64,000 nucleotides of DNA from an uncultured Candidatus Saccharibacteria bacterium (GTDB taxonomy: Bacteria > Patescibacteriota > Minisyncoccia > Phycocordibacterales > DATDWN01): assembly GCA_964426735.1 (NCBI GenBank), contig CAYRRP010000001.1:75923-139922 (forward strand), written 5' to 3'. The first letter of the stretch is position 1. Each line of letters begins with the position of its first letter. Made by a program: the position numbers and the translations under genes. The notes under the pieces are model-generated. The model was given only the letters and a program-made list of their open reading frames with translations. It did not search any database and had not been told where the DNA came from. This document shows positions 49-63,707 of the stretch, piece by piece.

Positions 49-1584
49 TCAAATCGCGTCAAACTTTGGAGCATTCCGTATAGAGTTCCTTTTCTCGATG
101 ATTCCTAGTTTCTCTCTACTACTTAAGTGATTGAGATCACGGTCATCTCTTGGTGGAAATACACCAAATGATACCGACCTATGATTATTCTCAATAACTT
201 TAGAAAGTAATATGGAAAAAGCATCAGCTAAGTCATCGTGTCTTTCCGAACCAAAACCAGTTAGTTGATTAATAAGTTGCTCTACTCCACTTTTAGGAAA
301 CAACACTTGACCACTTTCTATAAGAAAACTAACAGCACTCAATCTGTCATATTTGTCTCCCACAGAACGCACACCTACTACATTACAATTTTCTTTTTTG
401 AGATGTTCAATAATCGAAGCTTGATATCCGTTAGTTTCAACAAAGAGCTTGGGTCTATTAAGTACAGATGATATCATCTTAGCTTGCTCAATAGTTTCAA
501 GAGAAGTCAGTCGTTTGTTAACGATATTTGGTAGGATATATATTCTCAAGTTCTGTCCTCTACCTTGAACGATAGCAGGTATCATAGCAGTGTAGTCTGC
601 ACTATCTTTCAGTGATATAGCTAAATCAATACCAACTGCTCTATATGTATGGAAGTTATCAGGTGGAAGTACATCATATGATTGTATCCACCCTCTTTGA
701 ATAACCTGATCTTCTCTCTCAACAATTTGGAGTAGATATTCTCTCTGCCAAGCTAAAAGATTAAAGCATTTTGCTTTTTCCATTTGTATATCGTCATCAT
801 TTTGAAACTTGCCAGACCATAGAGGTATATTATTCTCATCAACAATAGGATATTCTCTAAAAATACTTTTTGAATTGTTATTTTCAAAGATACCCTTAAG
901 TCTCATGAGTAGAGAATCTTGGTGCAGTGGTGTACCAATGAAAATCATCCTTGTGTCTTTATCGCCAGCAGGTAACACATCACCCGTCAGCCACTCAAAC
1001 AGTTTATCTCTACTCTCTTGTGTTTTAACTGATTCAGAATCCTCTAGGTCGTCGCAAACAATTACATCGGGTCTATGTTGGTTGTGTCGTATACCTCTCA
1101 CACTTTGTTCTACTGACCCAATTGAGATTCTTGCTCCGTATTGAAGCAAGATGAGTGATTGAGCACCCCATTGGTTGTTCTCTTCCTTAAACGGACCAAG
1201 ATCACGACGTAGTTCATCGTTTTGCTCCAGTTCTTTCTTAATATTCATCAAGTGATTTTGAGCTTTACTCTGTGTCTTTCCGAGAATTAAGGGAAACTTC
1301 TTTTGTTGTTCTCCAAGTATAGACCAAATAACATATGACATAGTCACAATGGTACTCTTAGCACTTCCTCTAAAGGCAGTAATGACAAGATTTTGTATAT
1401 CCATATCTTCCGTTAACTGAAATATTTCTCTTTGAAAATCAGCAGTTCTGTATTTAACATAGTGTCTACCAAAGTAGTAGTGGAAAAACCAATAATGGCT
1501 TTTGCGAACCATTGCTACTCGAAAGGCTTTATCCTTTATCATTCTCTCTATTATCTTCTCCTCATCAGGATTTAGATTTGTCAT
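49..1584 (-). CDS. phage terminase large subunit (TerL), prophage remnant
   Basis: 511 aa. Walker A-like ITAFRGSAKSTIV and Walker B-like VIVCDDLED in the N-terminal half; C-terminal RNaseH-like nuclease half. Typical TerL architecture. Confidence 0.8.
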   Translation of the reverse strand: MTNLNPDEEKIIERMIKDKAFRVAMVRKSHYWFFHYYFGRHYVKYRTADFQREIFQLTEDMDIQNLVITAFRGSAKSTIVTMSYVIWSILGEQQKKFPLILGKTQSKAQNHLMNIKKELEQNDELRRDLGPFKEENNQWGAQSLILLQYGARISIGSVEQSVRGIRHNQHRPDVIVCDDLEDSESVKTQESRDKLFEWLTGDVLPAGDKDTRMIFIGTPLHQDSLLMRLKGIFENNNSKSIFREYPIVDENNIPLWSGKFQNDDDIQMEKAKCFNLLAWQREYLLQIVEREDQVIQRGWIQSYDVLPPDNFHTYRAVGIDLAISLKDSADYTAMIPAIVQGRGQNLRIYILPNIVNKRLTSLETIEQAKMISSVLNRPKLFVETNGYQASIIEHLKKENCNVVGVRSVGDKYDRLSAVSFLIESGQVLFPKSGVEQLINQLTGFGSERHDDLADAFSILLSKVIENNHRSVSFGVFPPRDDRDLNHLSSREKLGIIEKRNSIRNAPKFDAI

Positions 1585-1966
1585 GGTTTTGTGGAGGCAT
1601 AGCCAAAAGCAGAGCTTTCTTAATTAAGTCCTCTTGCTCTGGAGAGAGTGGTGCGTTCTGATTTTCCAGTTTTACTGTAGCTTCGACCTTTTCTCTGAAT
1701 TTAGGATTTCTGTGTCTTAACCAAAAACTGATAGCGTTCCAGTTTCTATCCTTAATGAGAGATAGAAGTTGATTCTCACTCATGTCATTAACCAAGGCTT
1801 CACCTTCAGACAAGGCAAGTTCCATTTCGTCTAGAAACTTTGGATCTTCCTTACGCCAACGGTAGATACTGTTTCTAGAGATATTTGTTTTCTCACATGC
1901 TACCTGAACTATGGGGATTTTACGGAGTTGTTCGAGGAAAGTATTCTTGATTTTATTCTTCTTCAT
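1565..1966 (-). CDS. terminase small subunit-like HTH protein
   Basis: 133 aa immediately upstream of TerL and overlapping it by a few codons. N-terminal HTH-like segment (ISRNSIYRWRKEDPKF), the usual TerS-TerL arrangement. Confidence 0.5.
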   Translation of the reverse strand: MKKNKIKNTFLEQLRKIPIVQVACEKTNISRNSIYRWRKEDPKFLDEMELALSEGEALVNDMSENQLLSLIKDRNWNAISFWLRHRNPKFREKVEATVKLENQNAPLSPEQEDLIKKALLLAMPPQNHDKSKS

Positions 1967-3233
1967 ATTTGTGAATTATCTTAGCTTTCTTTCCTGTAAG
2001 TAACTCAAATCGTTTGATAGCTAAATCACAAAATCGTGGTTCAAGTTCCACTGCATATACTCGTCGCTTTAACTGTTCCGCACATATCATAGTGCTAGAT
2101 GATCCAGCAAAGGAATCAAGAATGATGTCGCCAGGTTTAGTACACCGTCTAATCGCTTTCTCATGGAGCTTAGGGGGTTTACTCGTCGCATGCTCGTATT
2201 CTTTACCAGACAGTCGTTTTACAAACCACAAGTCCAAATGATCCAATGCTTCAGTTAGAAGATTGTTTCCAGTTGTGATTTCTTTGTTCATTACCTCATT
2301 AAGGTTCTGAATGTTTTTAGTAATGTATGGTTTGCCACGAACTCCGTATGTACATGGCTCGTAGCATTTGTTGAATGCCACAGTCGGTACTGGGTTCTGT
2401 GAGTTTTTGACCCACAAACAGACTCGTTTGTTTTCAATACCAAGTTCACGGTATATATCTTGGACGAATCCAATATATATTTGGTCCGACCAATAGAAGA
2501 TATGAGTATCTGGTTTAGATACAGACAGAGCATTAACCATGCTTTTTCTCAAGAACTCTTTGTATTCGACGTCTGTTCTGTTGTCGTTTACATTTCCACC
2601 ATAATTTTGTTTACCACCAATACCTCCGTTGTAATTGATTTTGATATTGTATACAGGATCGCTGTAAATCATTGACGCTTTCTCTTTGCCGAATAATTTC
2701 TTGAGAGAAGTTTGGTCTAATGAATCACCACAATAAAGCTTGTGACCTCCCATGAAAATCATATCTCCAAGTTTAGTTTTTGGTTTGGTGATTTTCTTGA
2801 GTTCAGCATCAACATCAAACTGATCATCTTCTGCTTCAAGGTTCTCCGACCAGATATCTTGGAGTTCATTCTTATCAAATCCAATATCAGTGAGTGTATC
2901 CATATCAAAGGATTTTAGTCCTTCAAAATCCCACTCACCATCGTTAGTGTTACTTTCGAGAGCGATTTTGTTTCTCTCGTCTTTGGTTAACTTGCGATTA
3001 GGAATGAGAACAGTAACTTCTTGTATACCAAGTTCAGTTAATGCTTTCTTTCTCTGGTTTCCCGAAAGTACTGTCCCATCTGTATCAATTTTGATGACAT
3101 CATGGAAACCACGTTGTTTGATACGATCCTTCAATTTCTCAAATGCTTCTTTAGTAATTTTCCTCGGATTGTTTCTCCAAGCTTTTAGAGACTTAACGCT
3201 CCGTTTTTCGGAACGCCATATTAATTTAGTCAT
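1953..3233 (-). CDS. ParB-like nuclease domain / DNA methyltransferase fusion (N6-adenine or N4-cytosine, beta-class motif order)
   Basis: 426 aa. N-terminal ParB-like domain, then MTase motif IV-like IYSDPVYN followed by motif I-like ILDSFAGSSST. Motif IV precedes motif I, as in the ParB-MTase fusions common in phages. Confidence 0.75.
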   Translation of the reverse strand: MTKLIWRSEKRSVKSLKAWRNNPRKITKEAFEKLKDRIKQRGFHDVIKIDTDGTVLSGNQRKKALTELGIQEVTVLIPNRKLTKDERNKIALESNTNDGEWDFEGLKSFDMDTLTDIGFDKNELQDIWSENLEAEDDQFDVDAELKKITKPKTKLGDMIFMGGHKLYCGDSLDQTSLKKLFGKEKASMIYSDPVYNIKINYNGGIGGKQNYGGNVNDNRTDVEYKEFLRKSMVNALSVSKPDTHIFYWSDQIYIGFVQDIYRELGIENKRVCLWVKNSQNPVPTVAFNKCYEPCTYGVRGKPYITKNIQNLNEVMNKEITTGNNLLTEALDHLDLWFVKRLSGKEYEHATSKPPKLHEKAIRRCTKPGDIILDSFAGSSSTMICAEQLKRRVYAVELEPRFCDLAIKRFELLTGKKAKIIHKYEEE

Positions 3234-24368: not shown

Positions 24369-25889
24369 TTAAAATTCATTAAGAAGAGATACATCTGCAC
24401 CGATTGAGTTCAATCGTTCGGCAATATTTTCGTATCCGCGATTAATAGCATATACATTACGAAGAATGGAAGTTCCTGTGGCACCAAGCATTGCAACAAG
24501 GATGATCATTGATGGACGAAGAGCGGGTGGGCATACCACTTGTGTCGCGTGTAGAGGTGTGGGTCCGTTAATAAATACCCTATGAGGGTCAGCGATAATA
24601 ATGTCGCTACCAAGACGGTTTAATTCATTGAAATAGATTGCTCGGCTTTCCCACATCCAGTCATGAATAAGGGTGGTACCTTTTGCCTGAGTTGCGATAG
24701 GTACAAAGAAGGGCAGATTGTCTGAATTTATGCCCGGGTATGCAGATGCATGAATCTTATCTTTTAATGCGGTAAGTTTTGAAGGATACACTGTTATATC
24801 ACATAGTTTGGTGTATCCATTTTTTGCTACATAGAGAGGTCCTTCTGTGTATTTCATTCCCATTTTTTCAAGCTTTAGTATCTCCAGAGAAAGAAAATCA
24901 ATTGGACATCGTGTGATGGTAAGTTTTGATTTTGTAACGAGTGCTGCGGCAATAAACATCATTGATTCGGTAGGGTCTTCACTGTTCCAATATTCAATTG
25001 GTTTATTTATCTCGCTTATTCCATGAATAATAAGTGTACTTGTGCCAATTCCTTCAATCTTCACTCCGCATTGTTTAAGAAAAAAACACACTTCTTGTAC
25101 CTGATAATTTGGTGGAGTAAAACGAAGAGTGGTAGTACCTGGAATAAGTGCAGAAGCAATAAGAAGGTTTTCTGTAGCTGTGTCTGAAGCTTCAAATAAT
25201 ACAATATCCGCGGGCTGTAGCTTCTTAGTTATTATTTCATAATGTGTTTGTTTGGTGGCTATATGTGCACCGAGCGACTCAAGTCCGTATCGATGGGCGG
25301 CGATTGTTCGTTGCCCCATTTTACATCCACCTGCATGTGGTATTGTAAAATTTTTTTCGTGATGTATGAGTGCACCAATAAGCATAAGTACTGATCGTAT
25401 GCGTGTTGAATTTACGGCACGTAATTTTTCTACAGAAAATTTTTTGGGAGGTTGGATGCGCACCGTATTTTTATCCACCCAGTCAATTTTAACGCCAATA
25501 CACTCAAATATTTCAATAATGCGACTGATTTCCTCAATCCGAGGGATGCCGTGGAGTGTTGTTGTGTTTTTGTTGAGGAGGGAAGCGCAAAAAAGACCAA
25601 GCGCACCATTTTTAGATGTGTTGGTTTGTATTGATCCTGATAACGTTTTTCCTCCTGTAATCTTAAAATCATCTGTAGTGTTCTCTACTTTTACAATCGT
25701 TTTACCAAGAATGGTACTTATTTTAGAAAGTAAATCTGCAGTTAGGTTTTGATCGCCTTTTTCTATTCGAGCAACGGCACTCTGAGAAGTTTTTAGTTTT
25801 TTTGCGAAATCTCCTTGTGTCAAACCTGCATCCTCACGCATTTGTTTAATAATCATCCCTATTTTTTCCATGCTTTTTTGTTGAGACAT
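24369..25889 (-). CDS. murA: UDP-N-acetylglucosamine 1-carboxyvinyltransferase with N-terminal XRE-type HTH domain
   Basis: 506 aa. Residues about 10-70 form an HTH_XRE fold (MREDAGLTQGDFAKKLKTSQSAVARIEKGDQNLTADLLSKISTILG). The remainder is canonical MurA (SKNGALGL; active-site Cys in HAGGCKMGQRTI). Confidence 0.85.
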   Translation of the reverse strand: MSQQKSMEKIGMIIKQMREDAGLTQGDFAKKLKTSQSAVARIEKGDQNLTADLLSKISTILGKTIVKVENTTDDFKITGGKTLSGSIQTNTSKNGALGLFCASLLNKNTTTLHGIPRIEEISRIIEIFECIGVKIDWVDKNTVRIQPPKKFSVEKLRAVNSTRIRSVLMLIGALIHHEKNFTIPHAGGCKMGQRTIAAHRYGLESLGAHIATKQTHYEIITKKLQPADIVLFEASDTATENLLIASALIPGTTTLRFTPPNYQVQEVCFFLKQCGVKIEGIGTSTLIIHGISEINKPIEYWNSEDPTESMMFIAAALVTKSKLTITRCPIDFLSLEILKLEKMGMKYTEGPLYVAKNGYTKLCDITVYPSKLTALKDKIHASAYPGINSDNLPFFVPIATQAKGTTLIHDWMWESRAIYFNELNRLGSDIIIADPHRVFINGPTPLHATQVVCPPALRPSMIILVAMLGATGTSILRNVYAINRGYENIAERLNSIGADVSLLNEF

Positions 25890-26857: not shown

Positions 26858-27763
26858 TTATTTTTTAATTAGTGAAGATGCTGTTTCCATACACCAACTT
26901 TTAAAAATATCTTTTAATGAAAGATTTGCTCCTGCGACCATTTTTGGAATTAATGAAGTGTTCGTCATCCCAGGTATTGTATTGATTTCTAAAAAGTAAA
27001 CTTTATTTTCGTTGGTGACGATAAAATCTGATCGTGATATATGACGAACTTCCAGGTGTGTATGGATCAGTAGAGCTTGTCGTTGTAACTCTTGTGTAAG
27101 AGAGTCAGGTATTTCAGCAGGGCATACTTCTGTCGCTAGTTTGTCAGGATTATATTTACTCTCAAAATCAAAAAAAGTATTTTTGGGAATAATTTCAATT
27201 ACAGGTAATGCAAATACCTTACTATCATAGTCTAGAATCCCTACAGTAAATTCTCTCCCTTTAACTGGTTCTTCTATAAGAAATTTAAGATGAGAATTTT
27301 CTACTAACAACTCATTCATCTCTTCTTGGGTGGTACATAGTTTTGAAGCAACTGATGATCCTCCTAGTCTTGGTTTAACAAAAGCAGGGAATGTTCCGGA
27401 TAGCTCTTTTGGGGATAAAATACCAAGAGAGCTAAGAATTTCTTTTGTGTATTTCTTATCTATTGTAATAGAATGAGTGGTTGTGTTGGAAAATAAAAAA
27501 GGGATTGCTAGAGACTTTAGTAGTGCTTGTAATGTTCCATCTTCACCTCCTTCACCGTGGATAATAGGAATAGCGAGATTAAAGGTCTGTGCACACTTTA
27601 GAAATTTATCTTGATCTTCAGGAAATGTAAAAAGCTCAGTTTCTGCAAAATCAATAAGATCTTGAATGTTTCGAGCAGATCTAATAGAAACCTCACGTTC
27701 ACCAGTCTCTCCTCCAGTTATTAGTGCTATTCTCATAAGCTTTAATAGTAACAAATTTTGCAA
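26858..27763 (-). CDS. ddl: D-alanine--D-alanine ligase
   Basis: MRIALITGGETGEREVSIRSA N-terminus; ATP-grasp fold with EINTIPGMTNTSLIP near the C-terminus. Confidence 0.85.
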   Translation of the reverse strand: MQNLLLLKLMRIALITGGETGEREVSIRSARNIQDLIDFAETELFTFPEDQDKFLKCAQTFNLAIPIIHGEGGEDGTLQALLKSLAIPFLFSNTTTHSITIDKKYTKEILSSLGILSPKELSGTFPAFVKPRLGGSSVASKLCTTQEEMNELLVENSHLKFLIEEPVKGREFTVGILDYDSKVFALPVIEIIPKNTFFDFESKYNPDKLATEVCPAEIPDSLTQELQRQALLIHTHLEVRHISRSDFIVTNENKVYFLEINTIPGMTNTSLIPKMVAGANLSLKDIFKSWCMETASSLIKK

Positions 27764-47641: not shown

Positions 47642-47725
47642 TGTACAAAACATTGATGTAATGGTATGATACATGGATTAATTTATACATACCCTAGAGC
47701 CCGTTTTGCGGGCCCGTTTACGTAT

Positions 47726-50425
47726 ATGAAAGACAAAAAAACACACAAACCAGAGGCTAAACCTACAGAAGTAGGTCGCCCGACTCCCGTGGAACGGGAG
47801 TTTAGGGATAAGATTATCGTGCGAGGTGCACGGACACACAATCTCAAAAATATAACCGTGGAAATGCCACGGGGTACGATGAACGTATTTACCGGACTCT
47901 CAGGGTCAGGTAAGTCATCTCTTGCATTTGATACGATTTTTGCAGAGGGTCAGCGTCGATACGTAGAGTCTCTTTCTTCATATGCACGTCAGTTTTTGCG
48001 TCAAATGCAAAAGCCAGATGTAGATGAGATTGTAGGACTTTCTCCTGCTATCTCGATCGATCAAAAGTCTCGCTCAAACAATCCTCGTTCGACCGTGGCT
48101 ACTATCACAGAAATCTACGACTATCTTCGTATCTTGTATTCACGTATTGGCCATCCACACTGTCTTGTGTGTGGTGATGAAATTAAAAAACTTTCAAATG
48201 AAGAGATTAAAAATTTTCTTTTAGAGAAAATTGCCCTTCAAAAGACAGCCTTCAAAAAAGTACGCACAGAGAAAAAAGTGCCGATGCCTATGTATGCAGA
48301 GATTTTCGCGCCGATTGTTCGAGGACGAAAAGGTGAATACTATCAGCTCCTCTATGACCTTCTTGGAAAGGGGTATTCTCATGTGCTCGTGGACGGCAAA
48401 CGATATGCGCTTCGTGAACGTATCGAACTTTCAAAAACAAAACGTCATGACATTGATGTGCTTGTGGACAGTATCAGTATCTTAGATTTTTTGGATAATG
48501 AAGCGGATGCACAAGAACGTCTCGCCGAGTCCCTCGAAAAAGCACTCGAAGAATCAGAGGGTTTGGTGAAGGTGCTTTTCCGTGATATGGGTCGCGAGCA
48601 AGATGAAAAGGATTATAAACCAGAAGAGGTTTTCATGTCCTCAAAACTTTCGTGTCCAAAAGATGGATACTCATATCCAGAAGTAGAGCCACGACTTTTT
48701 TCATTCAACTCTCCCTACGGTGCATGTCCAGAGTGTAACGGTCTTGGTACGCGACACTTTTTTGGTAATGAACAGTGTCCAAAATGTAACGGTGCACGAC
48801 TTCGAGAAGAAGCGCTTCATGTGCTTATTGGCAAGAAAAATATTGTCGATTTTGTGGCACTTTCAATCAAAGATGCAAATGAATTTCTTGAAACTCTCAA
48901 GCTTTCTGATCGAGAAAAAAATATCGCGAAAGTGGTACTTAAAGAAATCAAATCTCGCATTGATTTTATGGTAAATGTGGGTATTGAATATTTGTCGCTT
49001 GACCGTCGTGCACACACACTATCGGGTGGAGAAGCTCAGCGTATTAGACTCGCGTCTCAGCTCGGTTCTGGGCTTGTGGGGGCACTCTACGTGCTCGATG
49101 AGCCGACGATCGGTCTCCATTCTCGGGACAATGACCGCCTTATTCAGACATTACTCAACCTTCGTGATCTTGGAAACACCATCATTGTCGTGGAACATGA
49201 TGAGGATACTATTTTTGCATCAGATTATATTGTTGATATCGGACCGGGTGCAGGTGTGCATGGTGGAAATGTGGTGGTAGCAGGATATCTCGACGAGCTC
49301 GTCACTGCAAAGAAAAATACATCAGGATCTATTACACTCGATTATTTGCGTGGGGACAATTTTGTAGAAGTGCCAGAAAAAAGACGAGATACTCCAAAAG
49401 GTGAAATTCAAATCAGAGGAGGGAAAGTCTTTAATATTAAAAATCTTAATGTGGATATTCCACTTGGGAAGTTTGTGTCAGTGACCGGAGTGTCTGGTTC
49501 AGGGAAGTCTTCGTTTGTGTATGAGATTGTACATAAGAATCTCCTTGCTCGCCTTGAGCGAAAGTATCGAAGTGCAGAAACTTTCAATGCAAAGAGTTTT
49601 ACAGGAACCGAATATCTCGGACGAGCTATCTTGATCGACCAGAGTCCGATCGGCCGTACACCACGAAGTAATCCTGCAACATACACCGGTGCATGGACAT
49701 TTATCCGCGATCTTTTTGCTGAGACAGCAGAGGCACGAGCACGAGGATGGAAATCAAGTCGCTTTTCTTTCAATGTGAAAGGTGGACGATGTGAGACGTG
49801 TCAGGGAAATGGAGAGATTGAAGTAGAAATGCACTTTTTGCCTACTGTGTACGTACCATGTGATGTATGTAAAGGAAAACGCTTTATGAAAGAAACGCTT
49901 GATGTGAAGTACAAAAAGAAAAATGTGTATGATGTACTTGAAATGACTATAGAGGAGGCGCTTGCGTTTTATGAAGATATTCCTGCTATCTATGATCGCT
50001 TGAAGAGTTTGAGTGATGTAGGACTTGGATACCTCAAGCTCGGACAGTCTGCAACCACTCTCTCAGGAGGAGAGGCACAACGTGTGAAGATTTCTTCGGA
50101 GCTTTACCGTCCACACCTACAGAAAACAATATATCTTTTAGATGAGCCAACGATCGGTCTGCACTACGAAGACGTAAAAAAACTTATTGAGATTTTGCAA
50201 AAACTGGTAGATAAAGGAAATACAGTGGTGGTGATTGAGCACAATCTTGACCTGATCAAGTCATCAGACTATGTGATCGACATCGGTCCTGAAGGTGGAG
50301 CAGGCGGAGGAAATATTGTGGCAAAAGGAACTCCTGAAGAAGTAGCAAATGTTGAAAAGAGTTATACAGGGAAATATCTGGCAAAAGTGTTGAAGGATTA
50401 TAGAAATCGGAAGAATAGAGACTAG
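47726..50425 (+). CDS. uvrA: excinuclease ABC subunit A
   Basis: Two ABC modules ([15 protein letters not shown] with [14 protein letters not shown], and [13 protein letters not shown] with [15 protein letters not shown]) and zinc-finger Cys clusters. N-terminal extension. The ORF track starts at 47666; the ATG at 47726 is the likelier start. Confidence 0.9.
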
Positions 50426-50449
50426 AGGTTAGAAGTTAGAGATAAGAAA

Positions 50450-50485
50450 AAGCGGGCCCCACAGTGATGTGGTGCCCGCGTTTCG
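50450..50485. terminator. bidirectional terminator (stronger on the minus strand)
   Basis: GCGGGCCCCACAGTGATGTGGTGCCCGC. On the minus strand it is followed by CTTTTTCTT. Confidence 0.6.
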
Positions 50486-50487
50486 GG

Positions 50488-50787
50488 TTAGTTGTTTTTA
50501 TACCCAAGTATTACCTCGGATACGTATTTTGTTGCCGATGGGTACCGGGACTCGGCAGCCATCTTGCGAAATCTCCACAACTCATCCTCAGTTAGTCTTA
50601 CGGCTATCTGGTGGTTCCTAACCGCCTCCGGTTTGTCCGGATCTTTAATCCGGGTTTTCCTTTCCCCACAGACGAGTTTCCGGATGTACTCGGAGACCGT
50701 ACGGCACCCGACGTGAGGTAAAAGGGCCTTTATTTGAGCATGTTCTCTTGGTGTGGTACGTACACACACCATGTAGGTTCTGTTCAT
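50488..50787 (-). CDS. MobC-like mobilisation/RHH-type protein (GC-rich, foreign)
   Basis: Two tandem segments of the V-R-T/L-T-x-E ... SEYIR pattern (VCVRTTPREHAQIKALLPHVGCRTVSEYIRKLV and IAVRLTEDELWRFRKMAAESRYPSATKYV). About 50% GC. Confidence 0.4.
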   Translation of the reverse strand: MNRTYMVCVRTTPREHAQIKALLPHVGCRTVSEYIRKLVCGERKTRIKDPDKPEAVRNHQIAVRLTEDELWRFRKMAAESRYPSATKYVSEVILGYKNN

Positions 50788-50832
50788 AGGTAACTCCTGA
50801 GTACTTTATACCACGCTATAAACTTAAGTCAA

Positions 50833-51060
50833 CTACCTCTGCCCAACGCCTTCTCTAAATCCTCGGATTCCTTCTAGAAGGTTTTTGTCCGATTCTGTGT
50901 GTTGTTTGACAAACCAGCGTGCTGTTAGATAACAACAAGCTCGACCTCCTCGAAACAAAGTCTCAAGGATTAGTGTTTCTATGGATCCATTGTTTTTACT
51001 AGCAAGAGTGGAGAGCATCTCCATTTGCTCGTCAGAAAGATTAAGCGTCACTTGTGGCAT
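50833..51060 (-). CDS. ribbon-helix-helix (CopG-like) small protein
   Basis: MPQVTLNLSDEQMEMLSTLASKNNGSIETLI matches the beta-strand-helix-helix pattern. RBS GAAGGG 6 nt upstream of the ATG at 51060. The ORF track extends further upstream. Confidence 0.4.
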   Translation of the reverse strand: MPQVTLNLSDEQMEMLSTLASKNNGSIETLILETLFRGGRACCYLTARWFVKQHTESDKNLLEGIRGFREGVGQR

Positions 51061-51096
51061 TTGGCACCCTTCTTTTTTTAGAGTATAATACTTCCC

Positions 51097-52413
51097 ATGA
51101 CTCGTCAATCCCTTATCGAATCAATCAAAAAGTTTCCAGAGACACCAGGGGTGTACTTCTTTACCCGACGCTTAGGTAATCCTAAGCGTTTAGGGTTGGA
51201 GTCAGACCCTAAATCACCGCGAATACGTAATAACCAGGTAAAGATTTTATACATCGGCAAGGCCACCTCTCTCCGCGACAGAGTGCGAAGCTATTTTTCC
51301 AACGATATTGCAGTCACTCGAGGTCCAAAGATTGTTGGCATGCTTGAGGAGTGTACAGATATTACGTTTGAAAAAACAGACTCAGTGCTTGAAGCACTTC
51401 TCCTTGAGGCTCACTTAATCAAAAAATATCAACCAGAATACAACACCAAAGAAAAGGATAATAAAAGTTTTTATTACGTTGTCATAACAAAAGAGGATTT
51501 CCCTCGAGTACTTTTGGTACGTGGGCGAGATATTCTCGTAGGGGCACTATCGACCAAGAAAAAAATTGATTACACGATCGCTCATTCATTCGGACCGTTT
51601 CCTTCAGGGCAGACACTTCGCGATGCACTTGGTCTTATTCGCAAAATTTTTCCATTTCGAGATAAATGCGTACCATGTGCAGATGAAAAATGTAAACCGT
51701 GTTTTAACCGACAGATCGGACTTTGTCCTGGTGTGTGTACGGGAGAAATTTCACAAGAAGCATACGGTGCCACTATCAAACACATCATCCGTTTTTTAAA
51801 TGGTGAGAAAAAAGCGATTGTAAAAGACCTGGAAAAACAAATGAAGGTTCTTGCGAAAGCACAAAAGTTTGAAGAAGCGGGAGAGTTGAAAAAGCAGATA
51901 TTTGCCCTGACACATATTCACGATGTATCACTCATTAAAGAAGAAAACTTTGAAGCAAAAGCCCCTTCTGGTTTTCGTATCGAATCATATGATATTGCAC
52001 ACATGTCAGGACAAAACATGGTGGGTGTAATGACGGTGCTTGAAGATGGGCAGATAGAAAAAGGGGAGTATCGTAAATTTAAAATACAACACAATACAGG
52101 TGCAGATGATACAAAAGCACTCAAAGAGGTGATTACACGCCGTCTTGGGCACAATGAGTGGCGATTGCCACAGCTTATTGTTGTTGATGGCGGTGTTGCT
52201 CAAAAAAAAGCAATTGAACGTGTGCTTAAAGAAAATATGGTAGGGATTCCGGTGGTCTCTGTGGTAAAAGATGAACGACATAAGCCAAAAGAAATTTTAG
52301 GGGACAAAAAATATTTGAAATATGAGAAAGAAATCTTGCTTGCCAATGCAGAAGCACATCGGTATGCGATTGGTTTTCATAAAATGTTGAGAAATAAAGG
52401 AATGCGAGGGTAG
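51097..52413 (+). CDS. uvrC: excinuclease ABC subunit C (short form lacking the C-terminal HhH2 domain)
   Basis: GIY-YIG (GVYFF...ILYIGKATSLRDRVRSYF), UVR domain (KAQKFEEAGELKKQIFAL) and an RNaseH-like endonuclease domain (ESYDIAHMSGQNMVGV...YRKFKIQ). Ends after this, about 160 aa shorter than canonical UvrC. TATAAT-N7-ATG. Confidence 0.85.
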   Translation: MTRQSLIESIKKFPETPGVYFFTRRLGNPKRLGLESDPKSPRIRNNQVKILYIGKATSLRDRVRSYFSNDIAVTRGPKIVGMLEECTDITFEKTDSVLEALLLEAHLIKKYQPEYNTKEKDNKSFYYVVITKEDFPRVLLVRGRDILVGALSTKKKIDYTIAHSFGPFPSGQTLRDALGLIRKIFPFRDKCVPCADEKCKPCFNRQIGLCPGVCTGEISQEAYGATIKHIIRFLNGEKKAIVKDLEKQMKVLAKAQKFEEAGELKKQIFALTHIHDVSLIKEENFEAKAPSGFRIESYDIAHMSGQNMVGVMTVLEDGQIEKGEYRKFKIQHNTGADDTKALKEVITRRLGHNEWRLPQLIVVDGGVAQKKAIERVLKENMVGIPVVSVVKDERHKPKEILGDKKYLKYEKEILLANAEAHRYAIGFHKMLRNKGMRG

Positions 52414-52562: not shown

Positions 52563-53528
52563 ATGAATACATCACCGATCAGAGTTGCAGTGTTACGGGG
52601 AGGACCATCTCATGAATACGATGTCTCATTACGTACGGGAAGTGAAGTGTTGAAACATTTACCTCCACAGTATAAAGGGATTGATATACTAATCGATAGA
52701 GATGGTGTGTGGCACATGAACGGCACACCAAAATCTCCCGAGAAAATTTTCCCACACATCGATATTGTATGGAATGCTCTCCACGGACACTTTGGTGAAG
52801 ATGGAAAAATCCAACATATACTCGAAATGCATGGTATACCACATACAGGATCTTCTGTGTTACCGAGTGCACTTGGAGTAAATAAAGTATTATCTAAAAA
52901 TGTGTTCGCAAAATACGGTATTCGCACACCACACTCTATTGCTGTACATAAAGATGAGATGTCGAATGCAAAAATACATGAAATATTTACGACACTTCCA
53001 CATCCTGCCATCGTAAAACCTGCGTCCGGCGGATCATCACTTGGTGTAAAAGTGGTACAAACCATTCCCGAACTTATTGAAGCACTTGAAGAAGCATTTG
53101 CATATGGAGAAAAGGTTGTTGTTGAAGAATACATCACTGGACGCGAAGCTACGTGTGGTATCATCTCAGGTTTTAGAGATGAAAATCTCTATGCGCTTCC
53201 TGTGCTTGAGGTAAAAAAACCAGATGGACTTTTACATCATACGTTTGATCATAAGATGGAGGGAGGAGTCGAGTTTGACCATATGAGTCTGACCGCACTC
53301 GAAAAAGCAGAAGCAAAGCGTGTAGCGATGCTTGCACATAAAGCTCTCGGACTCTCACATTATTCTCGCTCAGATATGATCGTACATCCAAAACGAGGAG
53401 TCTTTTTGTTAGAAGTAAATAGTCAACCAAGTCTGAAGGATGGAAGTTCGTTTGCACACGGACTTGAACATATCGGAAGCTCACTTTCTCAATTTTTGGG
53501 ACATGTGCTCGGAAGGGTGACAATATAA
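52563..53528 (+). CDS. D-alanine--D-alanine ligase family ATP-grasp protein (second copy)
   Basis: RVAVLRGGPSHEYDVSLRTGSEV N-terminus, ATP-grasp core and EVNSQPSL motif. TATAAT-N6-ATG. Only about 25-30% identical to ddl at 26858. Confidence 0.75.
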   Translation: MNTSPIRVAVLRGGPSHEYDVSLRTGSEVLKHLPPQYKGIDILIDRDGVWHMNGTPKSPEKIFPHIDIVWNALHGHFGEDGKIQHILEMHGIPHTGSSVLPSALGVNKVLSKNVFAKYGIRTPHSIAVHKDEMSNAKIHEIFTTLPHPAIVKPASGGSSLGVKVVQTIPELIEALEEAFAYGEKVVVEEYITGREATCGIISGFRDENLYALPVLEVKKPDGLLHHTFDHKMEGGVEFDHMSLTALEKAEAKRVAMLAHKALGLSHYSRSDMIVHPKRGVFLLEVNSQPSLKDGSSFAHGLEHIGSSLSQFLGHVLGRVTI

Positions 53529-53592: not shown

Positions 53593-53997
53593 TCACCAGA
53601 CAATGCCTTCCTTCTGGAAAACATCAATAGTGTCTCTTTGCTGTCTCCAACAATCATGGATTGCCTGAGACTGTCTCTTCATGGCGCCGATTCCGCCCGG
53701 CTTCGTGGTCCACAGCACTGCACCGAATTTACATTTGTAGTTGCCAGGATGAAATGGTGCGGATTCACTTTTTTGATCCAGATTCTTTATCTGGACATAC
53801 CGCAAATTGTCGGCGGTCACTTGCAGTTTTTTTGCGTACTGGTCTACGCAATCCCAATGAGCTAGCCGTTTCTTTTCCTGAGAACGGTTCGGGTCTTTTA
53901 CGTTGAAAACGTACAAGCCATTTTCGCACGTATATTCCTTTGTCTCACCGAACACAACCCCAGCCGCAGCCAGGGCAATTACTAGTATGAAGAACAT
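53593..53997 (-). CDS. secreted cysteine-containing small protein (GC-elevated)
   Basis: 134 aa with a signal peptide-like N-terminus and 4 Cys. About 47% GC. Confidence 0.45.
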   Translation of the reverse strand: MFFILVIALAAAGVVFGETKEYTCENGLYVFNVKDPNRSQEKKRLAHWDCVDQYAKKLQVTADNLRYVQIKNLDQKSESAPFHPGNYKCKFGAVLWTTKPGGIGAMKRQSQAIHDCWRQQRDTIDVFQKEGIVW

Positions 53998-62936: not shown

Positions 62937-63144
62937 GAGTAAACAAAATTTTGAAAAAGCATTGCGAGATGAACTAGAAGTTTTGAATGAGACGATCGAT
63001 CGAAAGATTATCAAAGGTCTTTCGTATGCCGCTGAAGCTCGTCGACACAAAGCGATTCTTTCTCAGATACTTGAGATACGACGCCGAGACAATCGTTCAA
63101 GCTGGTTCTTGCGATCACTTGGGTTTACTTCATTTTTATTCTAA
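62937..63144 (+). CDS. small SOS-regulated protein upstream of lexA (candidate cell-division inhibitor)
   Basis: 69 aa (MSKQNFEKALRDELEVL...RSSWFLRSLGFTSFLF) with a hydrophobic C-terminus. Stop overlaps the lexA ATG (TAATG). LexA box upstream. Confidence 0.4.
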
Positions 63145-63707
63145 TGAATTCATATAAAGATAAAATTTTTGCTTTTTACGGGCGATACAAACGGATGCCA
63201 AACTATCAAGAGATCATGGATCTTGTTGGTTTCAAATCCAAAAATGCAGTGTATAAACTCATCAATAAACTTATTGATGAAGGGGTCGTGACAAAAGACT
63301 CAAAGGGTAAGCTTGTACCCACACGAATGTTTGATGAGGTGCCACTTTTAGGTCTGGTGGAGGCAGGTTTTCCTACTACAGCTGATGAAGAAGTACTTGA
63401 GACTCTCTCACTTGATAACTATCTCATCAAACACAAAGAGTCCACCTATCTTCTTGAAGTTAAAGGTGATTCGATGATTGAAGAAGGTATTAAGGAAGGT
63501 GACCTTGTTATCGTGGAGCGAAGGGGGGATGCTAAAGAGGGAGATATTGTAATTGCAGAAGTCGATGGTGGATGGACGATGAAATATTACAAGAAAAAAG
63601 GAAACCAAGTCTACCTCATGCCTGCCAACAAAAACTACAAACCCATCTATCCAGAATATGATCTCAAAATCGCCGCGATTGTGAAGGGAGTAATTCGTAA
63701 GTACTAA
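63144..63707 (+). CDS. lexA: LexA repressor
   Basis: N-terminal winged HTH and a C-terminal S24 peptidase domain with GDSM (Ser nucleophile) and the catalytic Lys in TMKYYKK. Self-cleavage site region LGLVEAGFP. Confidence 0.85.
   Translation: MNSYKDKIFAFYGRYKRMPNYQEIMDLVGFKSKNAVYKLINKLIDEGVVTKDSKGKLVPTRMFDEVPLLGLVEAGFPTTADEEVLETLSLDNYLIKHKESTYLLEVKGDSMIEEGIKEGDLVIVERRGDAKEGDIVIAEVDGGWTMKYYKKKGNQVYLMPANKNYKPIYPEYDLKIAAIVKGVIRKY

What the first reader, a model, noticed from the sequence alone, without database searches (positions are those of the whole stretch)
50426..51096. GC-rich MobC-like and RHH gene pair inserted between uvrA and uvrC
The uvrA-uvrC spacer holds two minus-strand genes at about 48-50% GC. 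The first is a 99-aa protein with two tandem V-R-(T/L)-T-x-E...SEY(I/V)R segments, characteristic of MobC-type mobilisation or RHH proteins. The second is a 75-aa ribbon-helix-helix protein (MPQVTLNLSDEQMEML...). This looks like the accessory module of a mobilisable plasmid or integrative element, stranded inside an otherwise conserved repair locus. It is evidence of past conjugative DNA traffic, which is rare and notable in ultrasmall-genome lineages.
Basis: partly seen in the sequence, partly recalled or inferred. Interest (0 to 1): 0.5.

Follow-up and report, generated by a model that had tools for sequence, protein, structure and literature searches.

The report
Fast-evolving RHH gene island between uvrA/uvrC
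The two small genes between uvrA and uvrC are real DNA-binding-type (ribbon-helix-helix) genes, but they are one version of a fast-evolving small-gene island that a whole group of related ultrasmall bacteria carries at this spot, not a stranded plasmid fragment.

Summary
Both minus-strand ORFs exist exactly as described. ORF99 (50488-50787) passes Pfam's thresholds for NikA-like and MobC_2. Both of its halves independently match the RHH domain, so it is a tandem, probably single-chain, RHH protein. ORF75 (50833-51060) fits no curated family. It belongs to a tiny new family (about 4 members among 1.8 billion cluster representatives) whose N-terminus looks RHH-like only at sub-threshold level.

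The "insertion / stranded mobilisation module" reading is not supported. At least ten related Patescibacteria assemblies (UvrA 98-99.5% identical) carry small genes at this site, framed by the same conserved promoters and terminator. Three cassettes are combined differently: a NikA-like RHH, an ORF75-type protein and a 2-TM peptide. A species with only 64% UvrC identity also has a NikA-like gene there.

The cassettes evolve fast (dN/dS 0.2-0.6, against 0.01-0.08 in the flanks). No relaxase, integrase, T4SS gene, att repeats, nick motif, or plasmid/phage homologue was found.

The high GC is real only for ORF99 (GC3 0.55, z 3.6) and is shared by all NikA-like alleles.

Most likely these are chromosomal, autoregulating DNA-binding proteins. 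Their promoters interlock with the uvrC promoter.

The parts
47666..50425 (+). uvrA, the conserved left flank
   Evidence: 919-aa ORF. UvrA_inter and ABC domains in the identical Logan contig. 98-99.5% amino-acid identity to relatives; dN/dS 0.01.
50452..50479 (.). Bidirectional intrinsic terminator hairpin (GCGGGC...GCCCGC) between the convergent uvrA and ORF99 genes; conserved in all relatives
   Evidence: Fold dG -24.7 kcal/mol, z -4.06, 0 of 200 shuffles as good. Aligned and conserved in L004-L006, L059, L063, L064, L066 and L125, together with the preceding (CAC/AAC) TAA CCCGAAA.
50488..50787 (-). ORF99: tandem NikA/MobC-type ribbon-helix-helix protein ('N' cassette, window-specific two-domain allele)
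   Evidence: Pfam NikA-like E 1.9e-11 (44.3 bits, 2 stretches) and MobC_2 29.8 bits. AGGAG 7 nt before the ATG. GC3 0.55. Identical gene in two Logan samples.
50656..50781 (-). RHH module 1 of ORF99 (residues 3-44)
   Evidence: NikA-like 30.1 bits when scanned alone. 25.0 bits against an HMM of the relatives' RHH domains. AF2 secondary structure E2-11, H13-26, H33-40.
50497..50619 (-). RHH module 2 of ORF99 (residues 57-97), replacing the helical tail found in all relatives
   Evidence: NikA-like 18.2 bits and MobC_2 17.9 bits when scanned alone, both sub-threshold. 21.8 bits against the relatives' HMM. AF2 gives E59-66, H67-79, H83-87 but then a strand at 89-97, so the fold is unconfirmed.
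50803..50832 (-). Promoter-like site of ORF99. The -35 TTGACT abuts the ORF75 stop codon, and the 8-bp palindrome ACTTAAGT (50822-50829) overlaps the -35: candidate operator.
   Evidence: Consensus scan TTGACT-18-TAAAGT. It is homologous to TTGACTTTAAGTC, the centre of a roughly 47-bp near-palindrome upstream of the N gene in six relatives. Operator function is inferred.
50833..51060 (-). ORF75: member of a new small family ('C' cassette), with an RHH-like N-terminus (residues 1-38) and a conserved G(R/K)ACC ... (H/W)TES C-terminal part
   Evidence: No curated family matched. Homologues P0009 (45% identity, E 3e-12) and P0011 (41%) were found among 1.84 billion representatives. Invariant columns are listed. 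P0009 lies at the same site in L064. dN/dS 0.58 with dS like the flanks.
50867..50896 (-). Island of near-identity (28 of 30 nt between window and L064) inside the otherwise ~50% identical ORF75. It encodes HTESDKNLL and contains GACAAAAACC, which also ends the 2-TM peptide gene of other genomes.
   Evidence: Sliding identity, codon view, L059 sequence. Its meaning is unexplained.
51080..51108 (-). Candidate promoter of ORF75, TTGACG-17-TACTCT. The -35 lies in uvrC codons 3-4. It sits back to back with the uvrC promoter.
   Evidence: Read from the sequence. The block 51077-51106 is 30/30 identical to L064. The same TTGACG...TATACT block precedes the RHH gene of L066. Promoter activity is inferred.
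51061..51089 (+). uvrC promoter TTGGCA-17-TATAAT. The -10 ends 7 nt before the ATG, so the mRNA is probably leaderless.
   Evidence: 11 of 12 consensus matches. TATAAT is invariant in the four-genome alignment.
51097..52413 (+). uvrC, the conserved right flank
   Evidence: GIY-YIG, UvrC_M and UvrC_RNaseH domains. 88-92% identity to relatives; dN/dS 0.04-0.08.

Best explanation
The uvrA-uvrC spacer of this Patescibacteria (CPR) lineage is a fixed chromosomal site holding a modular, fast-evolving island of small genes. The window carries one of its variants.

ORF99 is the resident 'N' gene, a NikA/MobC-superfamily RHH DNA-binding protein. In this genome the usual helical oligomerisation tail has been replaced by a second RHH module. 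One polypeptide probably supplies both halves of the DNA-reading beta-ribbon, as in F TraY. ORF75 is a second small protein of a new family ('C'), probably also RHH at its N-terminus.

I propose that both act as sequence-specific transcriptional (auto)regulators, not as working relaxosome parts. ORF99 would bind the palindrome over its own -35. The ORF75 transcription unit starts from a promoter interlocked back to back with the leaderless uvrC promoter, so occupancy there could couple the island to uvrC expression.

Shown: family membership of ORF99, its two-module make-up, positional conservation of the island, the conserved regulatory DNA, the fast protein evolution, and the absence of mobilisation genes nearby. 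Inferred: DNA binding, the operators, autoregulation, the link to uvrC, and the single-chain fold.
For: Family and architecture:
- ORF99 passes the Pfam NikA-like and MobC_2 thresholds.
- Both halves match RHH profiles independently.

Fixed site, vertical inheritance:
- N genes lie between uvrA and uvrC in L004, L005, L006, L059, L062/63, L064, L124 and the more distant L066.
- C genes lie there in L064, L124 and L125.
- Cassette orders differ between genomes: C-N, P-N, N, P-C and P.
- Every N gene, including ORF99, shares the same last codon, stop, CCCGAAA and hairpin. The N promoter core TTGACT(T)TAAGT is shared.

Rate of evolution:
- Window against L064: flanks are about 90% identical in DNA. 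Identity drops to about 45-55% exactly within the two coding regions.
- The dS of ORF75 (1.03) equals that of the flanks (0.48-1.15), so it diverged in place. Its dN/dS is 0.58, against 0.01-0.04 in the flanks.
- Same-type N pairs have dN/dS 0.19-0.41.

Protein and operator change together: five N types with the beta-strand (I/V)NFR(V/L/I)(S/D) keep the same near-palindromic promoter. The window allele has different strands (VCVRTT, IAVRLT) and a changed promoter flank.

Nothing mobile nearby. No plasmid, phage or defence homologues.

Precedents:
- MobC of RA3 autoregulates its own operon (PMC4175270).
- F TraY is a monomer holding a whole RHH dimer fold in one chain (bioRxiv 10.1101/2024.12.19.629322).
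- A related NikA-like protein, P0008, sits at the head of a Wza/Wzc polysaccharide-export operon, which is a regulator-like context.
Against: - No binding or expression data exist.
- The RHH assignment of ORF75 rests on sub-threshold hits only (hhalign probability 10.9%).
- GC3 is high in all N alleles (0.43-0.55, against 0.29-0.42 in housekeeping genes). A simple vertical history does not explain this, and it could reflect repeated import of alleles.
- ORF99 against the L064 N gene has dN 1.1 with saturated dS, so allele replacement rather than in-place divergence is possible for this cassette.
- Only 64 kb of the genome was visible, so a relaxase elsewhere cannot be excluded.
- A regulator whose sequence turns over this quickly is unusual.
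Confidence: 0.55

Rival explanations
1. One reading: the pair is the leftover accessory module (two RHH genes) of a mobilisable plasmid or integrative element that inserted between uvrA and uvrC and lost its relaxase.
For: ORF99 belongs to relaxosome-accessory families. Two adjacent RHH auxiliary genes upstream of a relaxase are a known layout, as in pLS20 Aux1/Aux2 (PMC5675868). ORF99 has the highest GC3 of the window. A terminase and a DNA methylase at 49-3233 show that mobile DNA does enter this genome.
Against: The site is occupied by homologous cassettes, with conserved promoters and terminator, in about ten related assemblies and in a species with 64% UvrC identity. The dS of ORF75 equals that of the flanks. 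There is no relaxase, integrase, att repeat or nick motif and no plasmid or phage homologue. An ancient mobile origin of the N family cannot be excluded, but it would predate this clade.
Confidence: 0.1
2. ORF99, with or without ORF75, is a working DNA-transfer accessory factor. It would act in trans with a relaxase or with the chromosomal, mostly relaxase-less T4SS of Patescibacteria encoded elsewhere, perhaps on an oriT-like site in the spacer.
For: Family membership. Patescibacteria widely carry a T4SS with a coupling protein, while known relaxases are rare and 'very different relaxases' may remain undiscovered (PMC12102498). The spacer holds conserved palindromic DNA. TraY-like single-chain architecture.
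Against: No T4SS, coupling-protein or relaxase gene lies in the 64 kb. There is no nick motif. L125 lacks the N gene altogether and L008 has only the peptide, so N is dispensable. The conserved palindrome coincides with a promoter.
Confidence: 0.1
3. The island is a strain-specific conflict module (toxin-antitoxin-like, immunity or exclusion). RHH proteins would act as antitoxin/regulator, and the 2-TM peptide or the ORF75 C-terminal part would act as effector. Diversifying selection and recombination would keep it variable.
For: Modular shuffling of three cassettes. dN/dS is 5 to 50 times that of the flanks. N alleles between types are saturated. The ORF75 profile's weak top hits include the ParD antitoxin and an anti-CRISPR protein. 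P0009 hits DUF6290 and the L064 N gene hits TacA1 weakly.
Against: No recognisable toxin was found and there is no PADLOC hit. The peptide and N genes are separated by a terminator and have their own promoters, unlike type II TA operons. No pairwise dN/dS exceeds 1.
Confidence: 0.15
4. The ORFs are decaying or non-functional reading frames in a permissive spacer.
For: Very small families; ORF75 dN/dS is 0.58; other Paceibacteria-type genomes hold unrelated ORFs or nothing in this spacer.
Against: ORF75 and P0009 are both exactly 75 codons with no indel despite about 44% nucleotide divergence. The family has invariant motifs. N genes are intact in every genome, with RBS, promoter and terminator. 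ORF99 passes the Pfam thresholds.
Confidence: 0.05

Closest known systems
NikA (R64) / Pfam NikA-like PF21983 and MobC_2 PF19514 relaxosome accessory proteins
   Same: ORF99 matches above the curated thresholds. It has the RHH N-terminal pattern beta-strand, helix, helix. It is a small basic protein.
   Different: No relaxase or oriT is adjacent. It lies at a fixed chromosomal site between repair genes, has two RHH modules, and has no detectable plasmid homologue by tblastn.
F-plasmid TraY (single-chain RHH; VirC2 is a second example, from my own knowledge)
   Same: Two RHH modules in one polypeptide, which would form a pseudo-dimer without a partner (for TraY; for ORF99). The roughly 15-18-residue linker is similar to the 15-residue linker of engineered single-chain Arc (my own knowledge).
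   Different: No sequence match to TraY or any solved RHH in the PDB sequence search. The fold is unconfirmed. ORF99 is not part of a tra operon.
MobC of plasmid RA3 (IncU)
   Same: A relaxosome-family RHH protein that also represses its own promoter (PMC4175270). This is the mode of action proposed here.
   Different: RA3 MobC is co-transcribed with the nic relaxase gene. Here the gene stands alone.
PcfF (pCF10) and Aux1/Aux2 (pLS20)
   Same: N-terminal RHH plus a C-terminal helical oligomerisation part, which is the architecture of the relatives' N genes. Two adjacent RHH genes, as with ORF75 plus ORF99 (PMC6514445, PMC5675868).
   Different: Those proteins sit next to oriT and a relaxase and are essential for conjugation. 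None of these partners is present here.
Arc / ParD / CopG-type RHH repressors and antitoxins
   Same: ORF75-family residues 1-38 align in register with Arc (MPQVNLRW...) and ParD. They are small proteins with autoregulatory potential.
   Different: The matches are not significant (E 0.5-1). ORF75 has a conserved Cys-Cys / (H/W)TES C-terminal part not known from these families. There is no toxin partner.

Membership tests
NikA-like / MobC relaxosome accessory proteins (ORF99) | Sequence match to the family profile above the curated cut-off | tested here: met
   PF21983 44.3 bits (cut-off 27) and PF19514 29.8 bits (cut-off 27.5). NCBIfam MobA/MbpA/TraJ equivalogs are all far below their cut-offs.
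NikA-like / MobC relaxosome accessory proteins (ORF99) | Encoded next to a relaxase gene | tested here: not met
   The neighbours are uvrB, uvrA, uvrC, ddl and tgt. None of the 29 largest ORFs of the window is a relaxase, T4SS or integrase gene. The rest of the genome was not visible.
NikA-like / MobC relaxosome accessory proteins (ORF99) | Adjacent oriT with a nick site | tested here: inconclusive
   No match to MOBP, MOBQ, MOBV or MOBF nick cores in 50126-51400, apart from one 1-mismatch hit to a degenerate 8-mer. oriT sequences are too diverse for a negative result to be decisive.
NikA-like / MobC relaxosome accessory proteins (ORF99) | Carried on a plasmid, ICE or mobilisable element | tested here: not met
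   Fixed chromosomal position in about ten assemblies. No att-like direct repeats. No plasmid or phage tblastn hit.
Ribbon-helix-helix fold (ORF99) | Beta-alpha-alpha fold whose strands pair into a two-stranded ribbon | tested here: inconclusive
Single-chain tandem RHH (TraY/VirC2 type) | Two RHH modules in one polypeptide | tested here: met
   Two Pfam stretches. Halves scanned alone score 30.1 and 18.2 bits. Against an HMM built from the relatives only they score 25.0 and 21.8 bits.
Single-chain tandem RHH (TraY/VirC2 type) | Sequence homology to TraY or VirC2 | tested here: not met
   The PDB sequence search finds no RHH protein at E up to 10.
RHH superfamily, Arc/ParD/CopG (ORF75) | Significant profile match to an RHH family | tested here: inconclusive
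   ORF75 itself: no Pfam or NCBIfam family. Family profile against PDB: Arc E 0.51, ParD E 0.65, in register. P0009: DUF6290 E 4.6e-4 and NikA-like E 0.033, both below cut-off. hhalign against the N family: E 0.0028, probability 10.9%.
RHH superfamily, Arc/ParD/CopG (ORF75) | N-terminal strand followed by two helices | tested here: inconclusive
   AF2, pLDDT 54.4: coil 1-9, H10-22, H27-37, then two more helices. This is compatible, but the confidence is low.
Type II toxin-antitoxin module | Co-transcribed toxin gene next to the RHH antitoxin | tested here: not met
   There is no toxin-family hit and no PADLOC hit. In relatives the neighbouring peptide gene has its own terminator.
Integrated mobile element | Empty site in close relatives, plus an integrase and flanking repeats | tested here: not met
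   All close relatives have the site occupied by homologous cassettes. There is no integrase and no flanking repeats.

The most novel reading that the evidence does not exclude
The uvrA-uvrC island could be a strain-identity or conflict locus of these ultrasmall bacteria. Recombining cassettes (NikA-like RHH, ORF75-type RHH-CC protein, 2-TM peptide) would be kept diverse by selection. The NikA-like proteins might serve as DNA-recognition adaptors for the relaxase-less Patescibacterial T4SS, or as exclusion factors against incoming DNA. The window's allele would then be a naturally evolved single-chain RHH.
Probability: 0.1. Interest if true: 0.7.

Novelty: new variant of a known kind. Interest (0 to 1): 0.35.

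Why it matters
It corrects a tempting misreading. A hit to a "mobilisation" family, plus high GC, in a CPR genome is not by itself evidence of conjugative traffic. Here the gene is a long-term chromosomal resident.

It also identifies three things that can be tested:
- A modular, fast-evolving small-gene island at a fixed site, framed by highly conserved regulatory DNA.
- A natural tandem (probably single-chain) RHH derived from a normal dimeric one, useful for studying how such proteins arise.
- A new micro-family (ORF75 type) with a conserved Cys-Cys motif.

The back-to-back arrangement with the leaderless uvrC promoter suggests a possible local control of excision repair in organisms that cannot yet be cultured.

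Tried and rejected
1. The word-indexed protein search with each ORF found only the ORF itself. tblastn with ORF99 and ORF75 against the relatives' spacers found nothing. The homologous cassettes only appeared by reading the spacer ORFs, by a profile search and by the exhaustive phmmer search.

2. I first thought the C-terminus of ORF75 was read-through past the stop of a degraded 2-TM peptide gene, because both share GACAAAAACC / 'DKN'. I rejected this because P0009 conserves HTESDKNLL within an intact 75-aa homologue.

3. I first argued that the cassette divergence exceeded any neutral expectation and so required allele replacement. Codon analysis showed that flank dS is already 0.5-1.15 and that ORF75's dS matches it. 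In-place fast evolution therefore suffices for ORF75 and for same-type N pairs. Replacement remains possible only between N types.

5. The viral-contig scan found nothing for the ORF75 family. It could not be run for the N family because the alignment had no conserved stretch.

6. PHROGs and PADLOC gave nothing for the window proteins.

7. Nick-site motif scan: nothing meaningful.

8. There is no paralogue of either gene elsewhere in the 64-kb window.

9. The 18-aa insertion in UvrC has no other copy in the window.
Full report
OBSERVATION

The interval 50426-51096 is exactly the spacer between uvrA (47666-50425, +) and uvrC (51097-52413, +). It holds two minus-strand ORFs: ORF99 (50488-50787) and ORF75 (50833-51060, starting MPQVTLNLSDEQMEML).

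ORF99 has an AGGAG 7 nt upstream of its ATG and a promoter-like TTGACT-18-TAAAGT. It is followed by a strong hairpin at 50452-50479 (dG -24.7 kcal/mol, z -4.06) that also ends uvrA.

The stated GC of 48-50% holds for ORF99 only.
- ORF99: 49.0% GC. This is z 2.4 among 300-bp windows, and the GC-richest 300-bp stretch of the whole 64 kb lies here. GC3 is 0.55, above all 56 longer ORFs, z 3.6.
- ORF75: 43.9% GC and GC3 0.355, which is ordinary for the window.

WHAT THE PROTEINS ARE

ORF99 passes Pfam's gathering scores for NikA-like (PF21983, 44.3 bits, E 1.9e-11, two stretches) and MobC_2 (PF19514, 29.8 bits). NCBIfam equivalogs for MobA, MbpA and TraJ are matched only far below their cut-offs.

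Scanned separately, the N-terminal half scores 30.1 bits and the C-terminal half 18.2 bits on NikA-like. Against an HMM built only from the relatives' domains, the halves score 25.0 and 21.8 bits over the same profile positions. ORF99 therefore consists of two RHH modules (residues about 3-44 and 57-97) joined by a linker of about 15 residues.

ORF75 fits no Pfam, NCBIfam, PHROGs or PADLOC family. An exhaustive phmmer search of 1.84 billion representatives found two true relatives: P0009 (75 aa, 45% identity, E 3e-12) and P0011 (80 aa, 41%). The three share MP..L..E...L, then T.F, G(R/K)ACC and (H/W)TES.

The family profile's best PDB matches are the Arc repressor and ParD, aligned from residue 1 to 38, but with E of only 0.5-0.65. 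P0009 hits DUF6290 (E 4.6e-4) and NikA-like (E 0.033) below threshold. AF2 gives coil 1-9 followed by helices 10-22 and 27-37, at pLDDT 54. An RHH N-terminus is plausible but not proven.

THE SURROUNDINGS CHANGE THE INTERPRETATION

The genome is a Patescibacteria (CPR) member, judged from the record titles of the nearest loci. The order uvrB-uvrA-uvrC is conserved widely in its relatives.

In the nearest species (UvrA 98-99.5% identical, UvrC 88-92%) the same spacer also carries a minus-strand NikA-like RHH gene. It is too diverged to be found by tblastn.
- L004: 89 aa, NikA-like 27.9 bits.
- L005: 96 aa.
- L006: 99 aa (all three).
- L059: 101 aa; L062/L063: 104 aa.
- L064 and L124: 100 aa, 33.9 bits.
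- L066, a species with only 64% UvrC identity: a 72-aa NikA-like gene, 27.3 bits.

All of these have one RHH domain plus a helical tail. Only the window allele has a second RHH module.

Next to uvrC there is a second slot. It holds a 56-62-aa two-TM peptide ending in KNRP in L004, L059 and L062/63. It is empty in L005 and L006. It holds an ORF75 homologue in L064 and L124. In L125 the order is peptide, then ORF75 homologue, then terminator, with no NikA-like gene. L008 has only the peptide.

More distant relatives have anything from 0 to 3.7 kb of unrelated ORFs in this spacer, including a 314-aa ORF in L009 that looks like an IS30-type transposase by eye (not profile-tested).

The regulatory DNA is conserved while the coding DNA is not. 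Between the window and L064 the flanks are about 90% identical. The blocks 51077-51106 and 50434-50493 are 28-30 of 30 identical. Identity falls to about 45-55% exactly between the start and stop codons of the two ORFs.

Every N gene, ORF99 included, ends with (CAC/AAC) TAA CCCGAAA followed by the hairpin. Six relatives share the promoter ACTTATTTACAACATACTTGACTTTAAGTC(T/C)AGTAAATGTTAATAAGTA, a near-palindrome centred on GACTT-T-AAGTC over the -35. The window keeps TTGACTTAAGT (palindrome ACTTAAGT, 50822-50829) but has different flanks.

The relatives also share the beta-strand (I/V)NFR(V/L/I)(S/D), whereas ORF99 has VCVRTT and IAVRLT. Protein and putative operator therefore differ together.

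The uvrC-proximal gene (ORF75 here, the RHH gene in L066) is preceded by TTGACG-17-TACTCT. Its -35 lies in uvrC codons 3-4. This site is back to back with the uvrC promoter TTGGCA-17-TATAAT, whose -10 ends 7 nt before the uvrC ATG.

RATES OF EVOLUTION

By the Nei-Gojobori method:
- uvrA: dN/dS 0.01 (dS 0.48).
- uvrC: dN/dS 0.04-0.08 (dS 0.69-1.15).
- ORF75 against P0009: dN 0.59, dS 1.03, ratio 0.58, with both ORFs exactly 75 codons and no indel.
- Same-type N pairs: ratio 0.19-0.41, with dS like the flanks.
- Peptide: ratio 0.42.
- ORF99 against the L064 N gene: dN 1.11, dS saturated.

The cassettes are therefore old residents that diverge very fast in place. Replacement of whole alleles by recombination is possible between N types, but it is not required elsewhere.

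GC3 is raised in every N allele (0.43-0.55, against 0.29-0.42 for housekeeping genes). The compositional anomaly is thus a family trait and not a mark of recent arrival in this genome.

TESTS OF THE MOBILE-ELEMENT IDEA

- No relaxase, T4SS, coupling-protein or integrase gene lies within ±8 kb or among the 29 largest ORFs of the window.
- There is no paralogue of either gene in the window.
- There are no flanking direct repeats.
- No known nick core was found.
- tblastn found no match in 72,556 plasmids or 50,697 phage records.
- The viral-contig scan found no relative of the ORF75 family.

The literature reports that Patescibacteria commonly carry a chromosomal T4SS but rarely a relaxase (PMC12102498). 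This leaves a small chance of an unconventional transfer role.

MECHANISM PROPOSED

ORF99 is a sequence-specific DNA-binding protein. Its two RHH modules probably form the DNA-reading ribbon within one chain, as shown for F TraY. The most likely role is repression of its own promoter at the palindrome over the -35, as MobC of RA3 does for its own operon (PMC4175270).

ORF75 is probably a second small DNA-binding regulator. Its transcription unit is interlocked with the uvrC promoter, so the island and uvrC may influence each other. The genome has its own LexA-like gene at 63144-63707, so the island is not a replacement for LexA.

These functional steps are inferences. What is shown is the family membership, the architecture, the conservation pattern, the rates of evolution and the absence of mobilisation partners nearby.

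VERDICT

The family guess is right for ORF99 and plausible for ORF75. The reading as a stranded plasmid module is not supported.

What is there is a variant of a known kind: chromosomal RHH regulators of the NikA/MobC superfamily. It has three unusual features: a fixed, modular, fast-evolving island; a natural tandem RHH; and a new micro-family. Interest is moderate.

Noticed in passing
window 49-3233 and on to about 12400: A terminase large subunit (49-1584, Terminase_6C) and an N6/N4 DNA methylase (1953-3233) are followed by a run of same-strand small and medium ORFs with low GC (28-39%; GC3 0.20-0.33). This looks like a prophage or phage-derived region.
   Followed up: partly
window 51167-51226 (inside uvrC): The window's UvrC has a unique in-frame 18-aa insertion (LGNPKRLGLESDPKSPRIRNNQVK region) between GVYFF and ILYIGKA of the GIY-YIG domain. 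All relatives lack it. The inserted DNA consists of two perfect 8-bp hairpin palindromes (CGCTTAGG..CCTAAGCG and TTTAGGGT..ACCCTAAA). No other copy exists in the window.
   Followed up: partly
window 51061-51099: The uvrC -10 box TATAAT ends 7 nt before the ATG, with no Shine-Dalgarno sequence, and it is invariant in relatives. uvrC is probably translated from a leaderless mRNA.
   Followed up: no
window 50867-50896: A 30-nt island is 28/30 identical between the window and L064 inside the otherwise ~50% identical ORF75. It contains GACAAAAACC, the same string that ends the 2-TM peptide gene in L004 and L059. It may be a recombination junction or a DNA-level constraint.
   Followed up: partly
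window 63144-63707: A 187-aa LexA-like protein: an N-terminal region that looks like a DNA-binding (wHTH-type) domain by eye, then VPLLGLVEAG and a Peptidase_S24 domain with GDSM. The genome therefore probably has an SOS repressor.
   Followed up: no
window 24369-25889: An HTH_3 (Xre-type) DNA-binding domain is fused to the N-terminus of an EPSP-synthase/MurA-type enzyme, inside a mur gene cluster. This is an unusual domain fusion.
   Followed up: no
window 26858-27763 and 52563-53528: There are two D-Ala-D-Ala ligase paralogues in the window, one in the mur cluster and one directly after uvrC.
   Followed up: no
window 53593-53997: A 134-aa minus-strand ORF with a signal-peptide-like N-terminus has the second-highest GC3 of the window (0.519) and no Pfam family on record.
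   Followed up: no
L060 8001-8258 (P0008): An 85-aa NikA-like/RHH protein related to the island's N genes overlaps the start of a Wza (Poly_export) - Wzc polysaccharide-export operon in another organism. This is a chromosomal, regulator-like context for this family.
   Followed up: partly
L009 5007-5951; L010 4075-6005; L014 5436-5858 and L015 5418-5858; L017 5537-5920 and L030 5551-5937: In more distant Paceibacteria-type genomes the uvrA-uvrC spacer holds other cargo: a 314-aa ORF that looks like an IS30-type transposase by eye (not profile-tested), several small membrane proteins, and two unrelated conserved ORF families of 127-146 aa. The spacer is a recurrent landing or retention site for small accessory genes.
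   Followed up: no
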